Assembly (NCBI GenBank): GCA_003193925.1
Contig: PSPG01000005.1
Location: forward strand, 17,840 to 81,839
Direction: 5' to 3'
Origin: Candidatus Thalassarchaeum betae
GTDB taxonomy: Archaea; Thermoplasmatota; Poseidoniia; Poseidoniales; Thalassarchaeaceae
Length of the DNA stretch: 64,000 bases
The notes beneath the pieces are model-generated. The model was given only the letters and a program-made list of their open reading frames with translations, was not told the DNA's origin and did no database searches. Positions 39,132-49,413 of this stretch are shown in pieces; position 1 is the first letter of the stretch, and each line of letters starts with the position of its first letter. Made by a program: the position numbers and the translations under genes.

Positions 39132-39218
39132 GCGGCAGTCGCATAGCCTGGCCATTGCGCTGGATTGCTAATCCAGTGGTGTTTCACCTCGGGAGTTCGA
39201 ATCTCCCCTGCCGCGCCA
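39132..39218 (+). tRNA. tRNA-Ser(GCT), long variable arm, encoded CCA
   Basis: Acceptor GCGGCAG/CTGCCGC, anticodon arm CTGGA-TTGCTAA-TCCAG, T-arm GGGAG-TTCGAAT-CTCCC, discriminator G followed by CCA. Confidence 0.96.
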
Positions 39219-45197: not shown

Positions 45198-45704
45198 GTG
45201 ACCGAAATGGCAGCAGAGCAGGCCTTCAAGGCAGTGATCAACGACACTTCGCCATCGTCTGGCGGACGCGCCTTCGGCATCGACATCACCGGCTCGAACT
45301 ACAATCACTTCCTCGGCAAGAGGATCGGCGACACCGTCGACGGCATGTTCGTCGGCGAGGGGGACAAGTCACTCTCCGGCTACAAGCTGGAGATCACCGG
45401 CGGCTCTGACCTCACGGGCCGGCCCATGCGCCCCGAGCTCGCTGGCAGCGGCGTCAAGTCTGTGCTCATCACCGCTGGCATCGGATACAAGGGCAAGCGC
45501 TACGTCAAGAAGAGAGGCAAGATCTACCGGTACAAGTACGACGGTCTTCGCAGGCGACGAAACCTTCGCGGCAACGTGATCAGCCAAGACACCCGCCAGA
45601 TCAACCTGAAAATCACCGAGGCGGGCAATCGCTCCCTCGACGCCATCTTCGGCCTCGTCGAGGAGGCCCCCCCTGTCGAGGAGCCCTCTGGAGAAGAGGA
45701 GTGA
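45198..45704 (+). CDS. rps6e: 30S ribosomal protein eS6 (S6e)
   Basis: FLGKRIGD, YKLEITGGSD..GRPMR, GLRRRRNLRGNVI, QINLK. Confidence 0.93.
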   Translation: MTEMAAEQAFKAVINDTSPSSGGRAFGIDITGSNYNHFLGKRIGDTVDGMFVGEGDKSLSGYKLEITGGSDLTGRPMRPELAGSGVKSVLITAGIGYKGKRYVKKRGKIYRYKYDGLRRRRNLRGNVISQDTRQINLKITEAGNRSLDAIFGLVEEAPPVEEPSGEEE

Positions 45705-45724
45705 ATCGGCGGGAGGGATGAGGA

Positions 45725-46966
45725 CTGGCACAGAGTCTCCCCCGACAGCCCGAAGTCAACATAGGCATGGTCGGTCACGTCGACCACGGCAAGACTACCC
45801 TGACCCAGGCCCTCTCAGGAGTCTGGACAGACACTCACTCCGAGGAGAGAAAACGCGGCATAAGCATCAAGCTGGGATATGCGGACACGGCGTTCTACAA
45901 AACCGCTGACGGCAGGTTCTACGCCAAGGGCAAACACCCCGACGGCAAGGACGACGACGAAGGCGAACTGCTCCGCGTGGTGTCCTTCGTCGACGCCCCG
46001 GGCCACGAGACTCTGATGGCAGTGATGATCTCCGGCGCCTCGATAATGGACGGTGCTATGCTGCTCATCGCGGCCACCGAGAAGTGCCCCCAGTCCCAGA
46101 CCCGCGAGCATCTGGCAGCGTTGCAGATCGCCGGCATCGAGAACATCGTAGTGGTGCAGAACAAAATCGACATCGTGACCCGTGAGAGAGCCGTCGAGTC
46201 ACACGGTGAAATCAAGGGATTCCTCGAGGGAACGATAGCCGAAGGCGCTCCGATTATCCCAGTCTCAGCCCACCACGACGTCAACCTCGACATCCTGATC
46301 CAAGCCATCGAGGACAGCATCCCGACGCCAGACCGCTCCTTGGACGAGGGTGGGCTGATGTACGTCGCGCGCTCGTTCGACACCAACCGCCCTGGCTCTA
46401 GGCCCGACAAGCTGCAGGGCGGAATCATCGGGGGCAGCATAGTCGCGGGCTCGTTCAGCGTCGGTGACTCGATCCTGATTGCACCCGGGCGCAGGGTGCA
46501 AGGAGGCGGCAAGACCGATTGGGAGCCGATTCGCACTACCATCGAGAGTGTCAGAGGGGGTGGACTCGCCCTCGAATCGGTCCACGCGGGAGGGCTTTGC
46601 GGCATCGCTACTCCGATGGACCCGGTCTCGACCAAGGCCGACGAGCTATCCGGCCAAGTGATGGCGCGCGAGGGCGAACTTCCTCCCGTCTGGGAGAAGT
46701 TGGACTTGGACCTGGAACTTCTGGAGAACATGGTCTCAGGGGGCGAGGGCGAGCCGGAGAAGGTCCGCCCGCTTCAGCCCAACGAGATGCTGATGGTCAA
46801 CTCGGCCACGGCAACCAGCGTCGGAACCGTATCATCGATCAAGGGCAGCAAGGCGACTCTGCAACTGCGTCTGCCGATATGCGCCAAGCCCGGCAGCAGA
46901 ATCACCCTCTCACGACGTGTGGGCTCTCGCTGGAGACTTATCGGGCACGGCTCGATAGGGGGGTGA
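45725..46966 (+). CDS. eif2g: Translation initiation factor aIF2 gamma subunit (probable CTG start at 45725)
   Basis: QPEVNIGMVGHVDHGKT, ERKRGISIKLGY, DAPGHE, NKID. The conserved N-terminus extends upstream of the track ATG (45767) to an in-frame TGA at 45719. Confidence 0.95.
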   Translation: MAQSLPRQPEVNIGMVGHVDHGKTTLTQALSGVWTDTHSEERKRGISIKLGYADTAFYKTADGRFYAKGKHPDGKDDDEGELLRVVSFVDAPGHETLMAVMISGASIMDGAMLLIAATEKCPQSQTREHLAALQIAGIENIVVVQNKIDIVTRERAVESHGEIKGFLEGTIAEGAPIIPVSAHHDVNLDILIQAIEDSIPTPDRSLDEGGLMYVARSFDTNRPGSRPDKLQGGIIGGSIVAGSFSVGDSILIAPGRRVQGGGKTDWEPIRTTIESVRGGGLALESVHAGGLCGIATPMDPVSTKADELSGQVMAREGELPPVWEKLDLDLELLENMVSGGEGEPEKVRPLQPNEMLMVNSATATSVGTVSSIKGSKATLQLRLPICAKPGSRITLSRRVGSRWRLIGHGSIGG

Positions 46967-46970
46967 TTCG

Positions 46971-47339
46971 ATGGTTCGCGTCCTAGTCGACGCGTGCGGA
47001 TGGGCCGCGATGACGGATGCAGGATTGAATCTGGACGAGGGGATGAAGGACGTCGTCGGCGAGGCAGACCTCGTTGTCCTCGATAGCGTGCAGAGTGAGC
47101 TTGAGCTGCTGGTGCAGCAAAGGAGGAATCTCCTGCTCGAGCTCCTCGCAAGGCGCTCCGAGAGGATTCCAGACATCGAAGGAATGAGCCATCCGGACGA
47201 GATGCTGGTCCACTTGTCGAGTGCCAACGGCTGGCCGGTGCTGACGGTCGACCGTCGATTGAAAGAGAAGCTGGTGAACTCCGGGGGCTCGTACATCGAG
47301 GTCACCTCGGGTCGGGCCCTGCGGCTGGTCGGCCTTTAG
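46971..47339 (+). CDS. PIN-domain protein (Fcf1-like), typical eif2g neighbour
   Basis: VLVDAC...V..EL, PDEMLV, VLTVDRRL. Confidence 0.8.
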   Translation: MVRVLVDACGWAAMTDAGLNLDEGMKDVVGEADLVVLDSVQSELELLVQQRRNLLLELLARRSERIPDIEGMSHPDEMLVHLSSANGWPVLTVDRRLKEKLVNSGGSYIEVTSGRALRLVGL

Positions 47340-47637: not shown

Positions 47638-49413
47638 CTAGGTCAATTCGAGTTCCAAGGATGCCGCATGACTGAGCTTGAACAGCCTCGTCCTGCCCTG
47701 CTTGCGCACCGAGAGCAAACCCGCCCTTCGCAAGCCGTTGTATATCTGCGACAATCGGGGGCGACCCACCTCGAGGAGCGCCTGCAACTCGGGGTCAGAT
47801 GGCGAAACCTCACGCTTTCCTGCGGCTGCTAGGACCGTGTGTTCCGAATCCGAGAGGCTGGCCGCGCGAGTGCGGTCCAGCGGCTCGTCATCGTCCCACC
47901 TGGGTCCCATGATGATCGGTATCTTGGGTGGCACCGGGTCTGGCTCGGGCTCGACGAAGACCTCCTCGGGCTGGTCGTTCACCAGAGGCGGGGCCTGCTC
48001 GATGTCGAACACCGGCGCAGGAGGCGCCTGCGGCTCCGCATCCAAGTCGGGTAGCGATGAGCCTAGGCTGGGGTCCACCGTCCAAAGAGCGCCCTCGGCT
48101 GCCATCACAGGCTGCTCTTCGCTCGGGGCGACGGAGGTGTCTGGCTTGGCCTCGGTGACGAACGCAGGCTGTGGTTTCGGCTGCGAGGGAGCCTTGACGG
48201 GGATCGGAGTCAGTTGAGGGCGCCTCTCGGCATAGGTGATCGGAGTCTCGTCGAGGCCCTCTGGCATCGAATCGCTGACCCTGACTGACCTGTTGCGCAA
48301 GCCGCTGAATCCGCTGACACTCTGCGGCTGCTCGGGCGGCTCAGTGCCCTCTTCCATGAGCACGAACGAGTCTAGGGTCTCCTGTTCGCCATGAGTGGTG
48401 ACGGTTTCTGCGGGAGCGGTCTCCTCGGCCTCGTCCTCCGAGTCCTCGTCCCAGACGTCTTCAGGGTCGGGGAACTCCTCGGTCTCCTCGTCCCACATGT
48501 CATCCGGCTCGACATCCCAGTCATCCTCCTCGGGTTCCGGCTCCGGCTCAGGCTCTGGGGTGTCGCCCTCTACCAGAAGCTCCTCCTCGGGTTCCTCCTC
48601 CACCGTGACGAGTGGTTTCTGCCACCCCACCAGTCGCTCCAGCGTACCCTGAGAGCCTGCGTCACGCCTCTCGTCGACGAGGTCACGGAGCAGGCGGACC
48701 ACTTCACGGGGGTTGCCCCCTGTATTGCTGTGGATGGCCCTGAGCAGATCCGGCTTGATGTTCCACCTCTCCCTTGCCTTCCTGCGCACCAGATTATCGC
48801 TCATTTTCTGTATCTGAGGCGCAGAAAGGCCCTCAAGACGCTCAGGGGGGTCGAAGATCTCGAGCACCTCCTCGTCTAGGGAAGTCAGTTGCGCGGGCGT
48901 GAGGGAGACCACCACCAGCGCCCTCAGACGCTGCAGAAGCGGTGCCATTCGGGTGAGGAAGTCGTTGATCTGGACGCTGGAGGGGTAGTCCAAGGCAATC
49001 AGCGGCAGGGGACCCGTGCCCTGCTCTAGAGTCTCGATCAACTGCTCGCAGAGCTGTCCGATGGAAGGAGGCACGTCGTATCCGACGAAGTTGATGGCAA
49101 TCTCGTGCATGACGGAGTTCACCGGATCCTCTTCGGGCCAGTACTGGCCGACGAACTTCTTGTTCACCTGAGACGACAGGGCGTTGATCAGCGAAGTACG
49201 GCCACTGCCTCTCTCCCCGACCAAGAGTATCAACCGGGGAGATTCAGAGATGACATGCTCGCGCAATCTGGTAAGAAGGGAATCTCGCCCCACTATGTCC
49301 TGAGCCCGCGTGGACTCAATAGGTCGGAGTTCGAAGGGGTTGCCCCTCAGAGGAGGTAGGTCGAGCAGAGAAACTGCTGCTCCATCCATTGCTCGAGCAG
49401 CGATTTTTCTCAT
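47638..49413 (-). CDS. Degenerate AAA+ (AAA_16/ExeA/Cdc6-like) domain, acidic Pro-rich linker and C-terminal winged helix
   Basis: NPF...IVGRD, Walker A-like GERGSGRTS, Walker B-like IALDYP, TGGNPREVVRLL; C-terminal LSDSEHTVL...VGRPRLSQIYNGLRRAGLLSVRKQGRTRLF. Confidence 0.75.
   Translation of the reverse strand: MRKIAARAMDGAAVSLLDLPPLRGNPFELRPIESTRAQDIVGRDSLLTRLREHVISESPRLILLVGERGSGRTSLINALSSQVNKKFVGQYWPEEDPVNSVMHEIAINFVGYDVPPSIGQLCEQLIETLEQGTGPLPLIALDYPSSVQINDFLTRMAPLLQRLRALVVVSLTPAQLTSLDEEVLEIFDPPERLEGLSAPQIQKMSDNLVRRKARERWNIKPDLLRAIHSNTGGNPREVVRLLRDLVDERRDAGSQGTLERLVGWQKPLVTVEEEPEEELLVEGDTPEPEPEPEPEEDDWDVEPDDMWDEETEEFPDPEDVWDEDSEDEAEETAPAETVTTHGEQETLDSFVLMEEGTEPPEQPQSVSGFSGLRNRSVRVSDSMPEGLDETPITYAERRPQLTPIPVKAPSQPKPQPAFVTEAKPDTSVAPSEEQPVMAAEGALWTVDPSLGSSLPDLDAEPQAPPAPVFDIEQAPPLVNDQPEEVFVEPEPDPVPPKIPIIMGPRWDDDEPLDRTRAASLSDSEHTVLAAAGKREVSPSDPELQALLEVGRPRLSQIYNGLRRAGLLSVRKQGRTRLFKLSHAASLELELT

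What the first reader, a model, noticed from the sequence alone, without database searches (positions are those of the whole stretch)
45701..45769. aIF2-gamma appears to start at CUG, behind an in-frame 6-codon mini-ORF
Seen: the conserved QPEVNIGMVGHVDHGK N-terminus lies upstream of the first in-frame ATG (45767). The frame is closed by TGA at 45719-45721, and the only start-like codon in between is CTG at 45725, 8 nt after a GGAGG SD (45712-45716). This would give MAQSLPRQPEVNIG. An in-frame mini-ORF GTG(45701)...TGA (MNRREG*) overlaps the rps6e stop, and an out-of-frame ATG sits at 45718. Known: initiation factors that police start-codon choice use poor starts for autoregulation (bacterial infC with AUU; eukaryotic eIF1 context). 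Inference: a feedback loop in which aIF2 abundance sets its own initiation.
Basis: partly seen in the sequence, partly recalled or inferred. Interest (0 to 1): 0.72.

Follow-up and report, generated by a model that had tools for sequence, protein, structure and literature searches.

The report
Conserved CUG start of archaeal aIF2-gamma
In this marine archaeon and about a hundred relatives, the essential gene for translation initiation factor aIF2-gamma has no normal start codon and evidently begins at a strictly conserved CTG behind a ribosome-binding site, a very rare arrangement for a gene whose own product helps select start codons.

Summary
Three independent assemblies are base-identical across the junction. 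eif2g (45725-46966) has no in-frame ATG/GTG/TTG between the TGA at 45719 and the conserved QPEVNIG. The homologous codon is CTG in 73 of 77 Thalassarchaeaceae (MGIIb) species, and 13 of them have a stop codon directly in front of it. It is the only one of 238 conserved degenerate codon columns that is fully fixed. Ordinary Leu codons changed 16-32 times on the same tree, including 2-11 C/T first-base switches; this codon changed 0 times. A GGAGGTGAT-type Shine-Dalgarno sits at the genome's usual spacing. Upstream, the reading frame is not kept (27/26/24), which rules out readthrough or frameshift. A basal clade has ATG at the same position with a weaker SD. A sister Poseidoniales clade acquired CTG independently. 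The "mini-ORF" is a by-product of SD-like sequence and is not conserved. A covarying helix and a nucleotide-fixed rps6e tail suggest coupling to rps6e translation. Autoregulation by aIF2 remains untested.

The parts
45207..45704 (+). rps6e (ribosomal protein S6e) CDS. The ATG at 45207 is preceded by the SD CGAGGTGAC; the mechanical ORF begins at GTG 45198.
   Evidence: ORF list. Pfam Ribosomal_S6e on the near-identical loci L082-84. SD and spacing.
45668..45679 (+). 5' arm of the outer helix, inside the rps6e coding sequence (C-run plus CUGUCGA). The covarying core is 45673-45679.
   Evidence: MFE fold. RNAalifold and pair counts on 77 species: core pairs 84% paired against 37-62% in slid controls; compensatory UA/AU/CG at A1 columns 19/59 and 24/57.
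45684..45689 (+). CCCTCT box (anti-SD-like), forming the 5' side of a small inner hairpin with AGAGG at 45695-45699.
   Evidence: The Pro codon is CCC in 42 of 42 and the Ser codon is TCT/TCC in 67 of 71. The hairpin pairs are 91% paired but almost invariant, so there is no covariation evidence.
45693..45704 (+). Distal SD-like box GAAGAGGAGTGA, made of the last three Glu codons plus the stop of rps6e. It is fixed at the nucleotide level.
   Evidence: GAA 77/77, GAG 75/77, GAG 71/74, TGA 77/77, while Glu codons further upstream split about 50:50.
45701..45721 (+). GTG...TGA 'mini-ORF' (MNRREG*). It is not a conserved coding element.
   Evidence: Frame relative to eif2g 24/27/26, length 3-421 codons, variable end point.
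45706..45717 (+). 3' arm of the outer helix (UCGGCGGG.GGG). It overlaps the 5' part of the proximal SD.
45711..45721 (+). Proximal Shine-Dalgarno GGGAGGGATGA (core GGAGG 45712-45716). It contains the out-of-frame ATG 45718 and the in-frame TGA 45719.
   Evidence: Profile anchored on the start codon in 77 species: G-rich at -13 to -10 and T at -5. Variants include GGGGTGAT, AGGAGTGAT and GGAGATGAT, ending 3-5 nt before CTG. The same SD type and spacing precede ATG/GTG genes in the window. Duplex energy with an assumed 16S 3' end is -12.6 kcal/mol.
45725..45727 (+). CTG start codon of eif2g.
   Evidence: see the full report.
45725..46966 (+). eif2g (aIF2 gamma subunit) CDS, 413 aa plus the stop codon.
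   Evidence: E = 2e-143 to M. jannaschii aIF2-gamma 1S0U, collinear from residue 6. Pfam GTP_EFTU and eIF2_C.
45767..45769 (+). Internal Met15 codon (NIG-M-VGH). This is the false start used by most gene callers.
   Evidence: 114 of 120 public calls for this species group begin MVGH.DHGK.
46958..46973 (+). SD of the next gene (PIN_9 domain protein). GGGGGGTGAT embeds the eif2g stop TGA (46964-66), followed by TCG and then ATG at 46971.
   Evidence: -18.6 kcal/mol.

Best explanation
eif2g is translated from the CUG at 45725. Shown by comparison: no canonical start exists; the codon is fixed at the nucleotide level across a whole family; the sequence downstream of it is protein-coding and the sequence upstream is not; and an SD sits at the genome's normal distance. 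Inferred mechanism: the 30S subunit is positioned by SD:anti-SD pairing (45711-45721), and initiator Met-tRNA reads CUG with a first-position mismatch, which gives Met1 and a low initiation rate. Delivery of ribosomes is probably coupled to rps6e translation. The rps6e stop lies only 20 nt upstream inside a second, nucleotide-fixed SD-like box. A covarying helix pairs rps6e coding sequence (45668-45679) with the spacer and the 5' half of the SD (45706-45717), so a ribosome finishing rps6e would unmask the SD. Inferred function: the weak codon is held by selection to keep aIF2-gamma output a small fraction of S6e output from the shared mRNA. Stronger codons one mutation away (TTG, ATG) are never seen in this clade. 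My confidence that CUG is the start is about 0.85-0.9. My confidence in the throttle-plus-coupling function is about 0.4-0.5.
For: No in-frame ATG/GTG/TTG in the window or in 26 other species; 13 species have a stop directly before CTG, and L061 has two stops within 9 nt. CTG in 73/77 genomes and 24/27 metagenomic junctions. It is the only fully fixed codon among 238 conserved degenerate columns; other Leu columns use 5-6 codons; CDS GC spans 39-62%. Fitch parsimony on 71 species gives 0 changes, against 16-32 codon changes and 2-11 C/T first-base switches at ordinary Leu columns. CTG stays fixed even where an in-frame ATG lies at -6 inside the SD. The QPEVNIG codons keep invariant amino acids with free synonymous change. 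The N-terminus is collinear with solved aIF2-gamma structures. The rps6e-stop-to-start gap is 15-20 nt with frames 27/26/24. ATG occupies the identical position in the basal clade. CTG arose independently in a Poseidoniales sister clade and was seen in at least 7 assemblies. SD type and spacing match other genes in the window. Helix covariation. Fixed rps6e tail. Identical sequence in independent assemblies.
Against: There is no protein-level or ribosome-level evidence; everything is comparative. The identity of the first amino acid (Met or Leu) is unknown. The window's structure is not more stable than shuffled sequence (z = -0.71), the helix covariation rests on few independent events, and the SD is only partly occluded in many species (columns 16-17 pair in under half). 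A 20-nt gap lies in the range where termination-reinitiation is already much reduced in Haloferax (PMC10666635). The 16S 3' end of this organism was not available, so the anti-SD is assumed. A throttle could equally be built from ATG plus a weak SD, as in the basal clade, so the reason for preferring CTG is not explained.
Confidence: 0.6

Rival explanations
1. Autoregulatory or stringency sensor. The near-cognate CUG makes aIF2-gamma synthesis depend on how strictly the initiation machinery rejects mismatched starts. When aIF2 (with aIF1) saturates 30S subunits the CUG is rejected; when aIF2 is scarce, less stringent initiation makes more gamma subunit. This would be negative feedback, like infC AUU with IF3 or the poor start context of eIF1.
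For: An SD of normal strength combined with a weak codon puts the rate limit at codon recognition rather than at mRNA recruitment. Selection acts against the stronger TTG and ATG codons. Weak codons recur at this gene in two families, and TTG/GTG starts may be enriched for eif2g in other archaea (crude). Precedents are IF3/infC and eIF1/eIF5 (PMC3326321). In the P. abyssi model, aIF2 bound to h44 pulls the initiator tRNA out of the P site unless codon and anticodon pair fully (PMC7531240).
Against: No data here link aIF2 level to this start. The principal archaeal discriminator is aIF1 (PMC4705826, PMC7531240). More ternary complex could instead increase initiation, which would be positive feedback. 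Only the gamma subunit is affected, and the alpha and beta subunit genes were not examined. The sister clade toggles freely among ATG, TTG and CTG, which argues against a strict requirement.
Confidence: 0.2
2. Compensated frozen accident. A slightly deleterious ATG-to-CTG change was fixed once by drift and the SD then strengthened. After that, reversion to ATG or TTG would overshoot expression, so the CTG is locked in without any regulatory role.
For: The tree suggests a single origin at the base of the clade. All six ATG lineages have a weaker proximal SD (-6.0 to -9.4 kcal/mol) than the CTG-clade median of -12.1. Start-codon weakening accompanied by stronger SDs is a general trend (PMC5622118). 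Marine Group II genomes are streamlined.
Against: This rests on one phylogenetic contrast only. SD strength within the CTG clade varies widely (-7.7 to -15.9) without the codon ever changing. Independent recurrence of CTG in the sister clade is unexpected for a rare accident: only 2 of 61,358 AUG starts switched to CUG in PMC5622118.
Confidence: 0.15
3. Recoding instead of CUG initiation. Translation would start at GTG 45701 with TGA readthrough, or at ATG 45718 with a frameshift in the C5 run, or as an S6e-aIF2-gamma fusion.
For: In the window the GTG is in frame and overlaps the rps6e stop (a GTGA overlap, typical of coupling). ATG 45718 would be in frame after a 1-nt slip.
Against: The frame upstream of the CTG is random among species (27/26/24; GTG frame 24/27/26). 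All three stop codons occur directly before the CTG, and there are two stops in L061. Neither ATG 45718 nor the C-run is conserved.
Confidence: 0.02
4. Artefact or pseudogene: a miscalled base or indel, or a dead gene; or the real start is the internal ATG at 45767.
For: Most automatic gene calls start at 45767.
Against: The junction is identical in independent assemblies. The gene is intact and strongly conserved in about 100 lineages. QPEVNIG upstream of 45767 is under amino-acid selection and aligns with the start of the G domain in solved structures.
Confidence: 0.01

Closest known systems
Bacterial infC (IF3) with its AUU start codon
   Same: An initiation-factor gene with a conserved non-canonical, inefficient start codon behind a functional SD. 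The factor encoded takes part in start-codon selection.
   Different: This is a different domain of life, a different factor (a tRNA-carrying GTPase subunit rather than the fidelity factor) and a different codon (CUG, a first-position mismatch). Autoregulation is proven for infC (cited in PMC3326321) and untested here.
Eukaryotic eIF1 (poor AUG context) and eIF5 (poor-context uORFs) autoregulation
   Same: Start-site weakness is built into genes for factors of the same e/aIF1-e/aIF2 start-selection core.
   Different: Those are scanning-dependent and context-based rather than SD-directed at a near-cognate codon. No eIF2-gamma/aIF2-gamma case is described in the papers searched.
Translational coupling of adjacent genes, by termination-reinitiation or by unmasking an SD through upstream translation
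   Same: A co-directional pair with a short gap, SD-like sequence in the tail of the upstream gene, and a helix with one arm inside the upstream ORF.
   Different: The gap (15-20 nt) is longer than the -4/-1 overlaps typical of termination-reinitiation, and efficiency in Haloferax drops steeply at this distance (PMC10666635). The restart codon is CUG.
Rare CTG starts allowed by translation table 11 and used occasionally by annotation pipelines
   Same: NCBI already calls the CTG as the start for one relative (P0011, 'MVQSLP...').
   Different: Annotation is inconsistent: ATT in P0010, an upstream TTG in P0012, and truncation at Met15 in 114 of 120 calls. Family-wide conservation was not reported in any paper the six full-text searches retrieved (about 8.3 million papers held).

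Membership tests
aIF2 gamma subunit (e/aIF2-gamma GTPase) | EF-Tu-like G domain with the P-loop GHVDHGKT, plus domain II and the eIF2_C domain; full-length homology to solved aIF2-gamma | tested here: met
   phmmer E = 2e-143 to 1S0U and 1e-137 to 1KK0, collinear over residues 6-413. Pfam PF00009 and PF09173.
Gene initiated at a non-canonical (CUG) start codon | No canonical in-frame start between the nearest upstream stop and conserved coding sequence | tested here: met
   Met in the window and in 26 other species; 13 have a stop directly before CTG.
Gene initiated at a non-canonical (CUG) start codon | The codon is conserved at the nucleotide level beyond what its amino acid requires | tested here: met
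   71/71 CTG against 5-6 codons at the other Leu columns; 0 parsimony steps against 16-32.
Gene initiated at a non-canonical (CUG) start codon | Coding signature begins at the codon: the frame is kept downstream but not upstream | tested here: met
   The upstream gap varies over 15-20 nt with frames 27/26/24. Downstream, indels come in multiples of three and synonymous variation is seen.
Gene initiated at a non-canonical (CUG) start codon | A ribosome-binding site at functional spacing | tested here: met
   A GGAGGTGAT-type SD ends 3-5 nt before CTG, as for ATG/GTG genes in the window. The anti-SD sequence is assumed, not read from this organism.
Gene initiated at a non-canonical (CUG) start codon | Direct evidence of initiation: an N-terminal peptide, a toeprint, or ribosome profiling of initiation sites | not testable with these tools
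Autoregulated initiation-factor gene (infC / eIF1 type) | A conserved sub-optimal start on the factor's own gene | tested here: met
Autoregulated initiation-factor gene (infC / eIF1 type) | The encoded factor itself discriminates against that class of start | tested here: inconclusive
   From the literature only: aIF1 is the main discriminator, and aIF2 contributes through its pull on the initiator tRNA (PMC7531240, PMC4705826).
Autoregulated initiation-factor gene (infC / eIF1 type) | Expression falls as the factor rises, and the effect is abolished by changing the start to AUG | not testable with these tools
   This needs reporter or in vitro translation experiments.
Translational coupling by unmasking or reinitiation | A co-directional gene pair with a very short gap and an SD in or next to the upstream gene's end | tested here: met
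   The gap is 20 nt (15-20 nt in 77 species), with a fixed GAAGAGGAGTGA box and a proximal SD.
Translational coupling by unmasking or reinitiation | A conserved helix sequestering the downstream SD, with one arm inside the upstream ORF | tested here: inconclusive
   The 6-7 bp core helix is supported by covariation (84% paired against 37-62% for slid controls; UA/AU/CG pair types). It overlaps the SD by only 1-3 nt in many species, and the window fold has z = -0.71.
Translational coupling by unmasking or reinitiation | Downstream translation depends on upstream translation | not testable with these tools
   This needs a two-reporter assay with premature stop codons.
Programmed recoding (stop readthrough or frameshift) | A conserved frame relationship, slippery site or specific stop context | tested here: not met
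   Frames are random, all three stop codons are used, and neither the C-run nor ATG 45718 is conserved.

The most novel reading that the evidence does not exclude
The CUG start makes aIF2-gamma synthesis a read-out of start-codon stringency or of aIF2 availability. This would be an archaeal counterpart of infC-AUU in bacteria and the eIF1/eIF5 circuits in eukaryotes. Self-sensing through a deliberately poor start on an initiation-factor gene would then have evolved in all three domains, here on the tRNA-carrier GTPase itself. The frequent TTG/GTG/CTG starts of eif2g in other archaea would be milder versions of the same logic.
Probability: 0.2. Interest if true: 0.85.

Novelty: new variant of a known kind. 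Interest (0 to 1): 0.72.

Why it matters
CUG is almost never used as a start codon in SD-type initiation: only 2 of 61,358 ancestral AUG starts switched to CUG in one survey (PMC5622118). Here an essential, universally conserved gene of the initiation machinery has kept one through the diversification of an abundant family of ocean archaea, and a sister family acquired it again. That gives a natural, well-defined substrate for three questions: how archaeal 30S/aIF1/aIF1A/aIF2 complexes handle near-cognate starts, whether archaeal initiation factors are autoregulated, and how the output ratio of a ribosomal protein and an initiation factor encoded on one mRNA is set. On the practical side, most public gene models for this protein in Marine Group II are truncated by 12-14 residues, losing the start of the G domain, and the others are annotated inconsistently. 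Gene callers restricted to ATG/GTG/TTG will keep making this error.

Tried and rejected
1. Sequencing error or indel at the C5 run: rejected. Three independent assemblies are identical across the junction.
2. TGA readthrough from GTG 45701, or an S6e fusion: rejected. Frames are random and all three stop codons occur, sometimes two in a row.
3. ATG 45718 plus a frameshift: rejected. The ATG is part of an SD variant and the C-run is not conserved.
4. Start at ATG 45767: rejected. QPEVNIG is under amino-acid selection and is part of the G-domain N-terminus.
5. The mini-ORF as a conserved element: rejected.
6. A known RNA family at the junction: none. Rfam found only a tRNA at 39132.
7. A single-sequence fold of the junction is not better than shuffles, so only the covarying core helix is kept.
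8. CTG as a general start in this genome: no other credible SD-plus-CTG gene start in the window. The one candidate without an upstream canonical codon (17093, minus strand, 92 codons) lies antisense inside a 1221-codon ORF.
9. The representative search gave only distant outgroups (48-51% identity), which served for rooting but not for dating the change.
10. The initiator tRNA could not be examined: the only tRNA in the window is tRNA-Ser(GCU).
11. C-to-U editing of CUG to UUG was considered. No evidence bears on it, and such mRNA editing is not known in archaea to my knowledge.
Full report
OBSERVATION. rps6e ends with GAA GAG GAG TGA, the stop at 45702-04. A GTG at 45701 overlaps that stop and opens the eif2g frame, which closes again at TGA 45719-21. 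GGAGG lies at 45712-16, and an out-of-frame ATG lies at 45718. The in-frame codons that follow are GGA CTG GCA CAG AGT CTC CCC CGA CAG CCC GAA GTC AAC ATA GGC ATG. CTG (45725) is therefore the only NTG codon before the first ATG (45767), and that ATG is the Met inside the invariant NIG-M-VGHVDHGK. The window has 62% GC. It comes from a Thalassarchaeum-like member of Marine Group II: the 99%-identical protein P0005 is named Candidatus Thalassarchaeum betae by NCBI.

NOT AN ARTEFACT. P0005 has been assembled independently in many samples. Three such contigs (L082-L084, 98.7% nt identity to the window over 3.7 kb) are base-for-base identical from 45644 to 45795, including the TGA, the CTG and the C5 run.

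COMPARATIVE EVIDENCE FOR THE CTG START. A scan of one genome per species returned 80 loci with 76-91% amino-acid identity, and those whose record titles name a family are Thalassarchaeaceae; 76 of them, plus the window itself, were usable.
- The codon homologous to 45725 is CTG in 73 and ATG in 4.
- In 27 species, including the window, there is no in-frame ATG/GTG/TTG between the nearest upstream stop and QPEV.
- In 13 species a stop codon (TAG or TAA) directly precedes the CTG. L061 has TGA TTA TAG CTG, two stops within 9 nt.
- The distance from the rps6e stop to the CTG varies over 15-20 nt, and its value modulo 3 is 27/26/24. The frame is therefore not preserved upstream, whereas downstream all length changes come in whole codons.
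- This excludes readthrough, a programmed frameshift and an S6e fusion.

NUCLEOTIDE-LEVEL CONSTRAINT. Across 75 full-length genes whose GC content spans 39-62%, the start column is CTG in 71 of 71 (the other four have ATG). The other 26 conserved Leu columns have a top-codon share of 0.21-0.65. This is the only one of 238 conserved degenerate columns that is fully fixed. On a 71-species tree, ordinary Leu columns show 16-32 codon changes (median 25) and 2-11 first-base C/T switches (median 8). The start column shows none. The codon is thus protected both from synonymous Leu codons and from TTG, a canonical start one transition away. Even in the 12-species clade that has an in-frame ATG two codons upstream, inside the SD, the CTG column is the only single-codon column among 29 all-Leu columns.

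THE SEGMENT AFTER THE CTG IS TRANSLATED. The Q-P-E-V-N-I-G codons keep invariant amino acids while their third positions vary freely. The 413-aa product aligns collinearly from residue 6 with residue 4-6 of solved aIF2-gamma proteins 1S0U and 1KK0, E = 2e-143. Starting at ATG 45767 would delete the beginning of the G domain. Gene callers nevertheless do just that in 114 of 120 public models for this group. NCBI models of close relatives variously use the CTG (P0011), an ATT (P0010) or an upstream TTG (P0012).

SHINE-DALGARNO. Anchored on the start codon, the upstream profile is a GGAGGTGAT-like motif (GGGGTGAT, AGGAGTGAT, GGAGATGAT; in the window GGAGG-GATGA) ending 3-5 nt before the CTG. In the window, genuine ATG/GTG gene starts (12426, 45207, 46971, 56522 and others) use the same motif with a 3-4 nt spacer, and no other credible gene needs CTG. 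The motif itself contains GTG, ATG and TGA. That explains the window's in-frame TGA, the out-of-frame ATG 45718, and the canonical codons at -9/-6/-3 seen in some species. Those codons lie inside or flush against the SD and come and go across the tree. The anti-SD was assumed from the general archaeal 16S 3' end, because no rRNA is in the window.

THE MINI-ORF. The GTG at the rps6e stop is conserved only as part of the nucleotide-fixed box GAAGAGGAGTGA. Its frame relative to eif2g is 24/27/26, its ORF is 3 to 421 codons long, and its end lies anywhere from -12 to +1242 nt relative to the start. It is not a conserved element.

EVOLUTION. In a tree rooted with distant aIF2-gamma proteins, the four ATG species form the basal sister group of all CTG species. 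Relatives of these four are named Candidatus Thalassarchaeaceae. This is consistent with one ATG-to-CTG change followed by retention. A metagenome scan added 27 distinct MGIIb-like junctions: CTG 24, ATG 2, TTG 1. The ATG lineages have a weaker proximal SD (-6.0 to -9.4 kcal/mol) than the CTG-clade median of -12.1, but this is effectively a single contrast.

A second clade shows the same feature. It is about 53% identical to the window protein, has 35-39% GC, and is named Candidatus Poseidoniales/Poseidoniia, probably MGIIa. It has the same rps6e-SD-eif2g layout with only 1-2 nt after the rps6e stop. At its SD-positioned start it carries CTG (L086, L113, and L205-210 plus L212 from at least seven assemblies; an in-frame TAA lies upstream and there is no canonical alternative), TTG (L111, L115, L157, L211) or ATG (L136, L202), sometimes in otherwise identical contexts. 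CTG at this gene therefore arose at least twice. For scale, only 2 of 61,358 ancestral AUG starts switched to CUG in a broad prokaryotic survey (PMC5622118).

COUPLING SIGNALS.
- The last three Glu codons and the stop of rps6e are fixed as GAA GAG GAG TGA (77/77, 75/77, 71/74, 77/77), whereas Glu codons further upstream split about 50:50. A CCCTCT box 5 nt upstream is similarly fixed.
- RNAalifold and explicit pair counting support a 6-7 bp helix between rps6e coding sequence (window 45673-45679) and the spacer (45706-45712). Paired cells are 84% against 37-62% in slid controls, and compensatory UA/AU/CG pairs involve a synonymous site of rps6e.
- In the window the helix extends to pair most of the GGAGG.
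- A ribosome reaching the rps6e stop would open this structure.
- Caveats: the single-sequence z-score is -0.71, the independent covariation events are few, the SD is only marginally occluded in many species, and termination-reinitiation in Haloferax is already reduced 40-60% at 13-14 nt and is about zero at 22-23 nt (PMC10666635).

INTERPRETATION. That the CUG is the start codon is, in my judgement, well supported (about 0.85-0.9), though only by comparison. Why it is kept is open, and three readings remain.
- (a) A hard-wired throttle coupled to rps6e, which I favour. It explains the selection against TTG and ATG, but it does not explain why ATG plus a weak SD, as in the basal clade, would not do the same job.
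- (b) A stringency or aIF2 sensor analogous to infC-AUU or eIF1 (PMC3326321). This is attractive because an ordinary SD plus a weak codon puts the rate limit at codon recognition. It is untested, and aIF1 rather than aIF2 is the main archaeal discriminator (PMC7531240, PMC4705826).
- (c) A compensated frozen accident.

LITERATURE. Full-text searches found no report of a CUG start for aIF2-gamma or of conserved CUG starts in archaea. The 2020 review of archaeal initiation never mentions CUG or near-cognate starts.

Noticed in passing
window 45693-45704, and the homologous position in L001-L080: The rps6e tail GAA GAG GAG TGA is fixed at the nucleotide level in 77 species (the stop is always TGA), forming a second SD-like box (AGGAGTGA) about 20 nt before the eif2g start. 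It is also present in the basal ATG clade, so it predates the CTG. Its role is unknown; possibilities are retention of the terminating ribosome, a pause site, or a hairpin partner.
   Followed up: partly
window 45668-45717: A two-tier stem-loop encloses the rps6e stop codon. The outer helix shows covariation. The inner hairpin CCCUCU/AGAGG is nearly invariant, so it has no covariation evidence.
   Followed up: partly
L085-L204 (metagenome sample of eif2g loci from many archaea): In about 53 non-MGIIb clusters, eif2g starts look unusually non-ATG: roughly 40% TTG, 15-19% GTG and about 40% ATG, plus a few with no canonical candidate (for example L109, where only the GTG of the Val in SVNIG is available). 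The heuristic is crude and has no control genes.
   Followed up: partly
window 46958-46973: The eif2g stop TGA is embedded in the SD (GGGGGGTGAT) of the next gene, a PIN_9 domain protein with its ATG at 46971. This is a tight SD-in-stop junction, and public gene calls for that gene's start also disagree (109 aa versus 122 aa in L082-L084).
   Followed up: no
L081 (ENA contig NODE_8228, coverage 1.6): This appears to be a chimeric assembly. Its 5' part (a short 128-aa S6e and TTG-started eif2g codons) matches the junction of L107, a member of a high-GC clade about 53% identical to the window protein. From position 1904 onward it is 98.7% identical to the window species. The join lies in the invariant GHVDHGK coding region.
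   Followed up: partly
L129: This is the only MGIIb-like lineage found with TTG at the anchored start position (79% amino-acid identity to the window protein), so CTG-to-TTG is possible but rare.
   Followed up: no
window 47638-49413 (- strand): A 591-aa ORF with an N-terminal AAA_16-like ATPase region (weak Pfam hit in L082-84) and a long acidic, Pro/Glu-rich low-complexity middle section (PEPEPEPE..., DEETEE...).
   Followed up: no
window 39132-39218: tRNA-Ser(GCU) is the only RNA gene detected in the 64-kb window. No rRNA is present, so the anti-SD sequence could not be read.
   Followed up: yes
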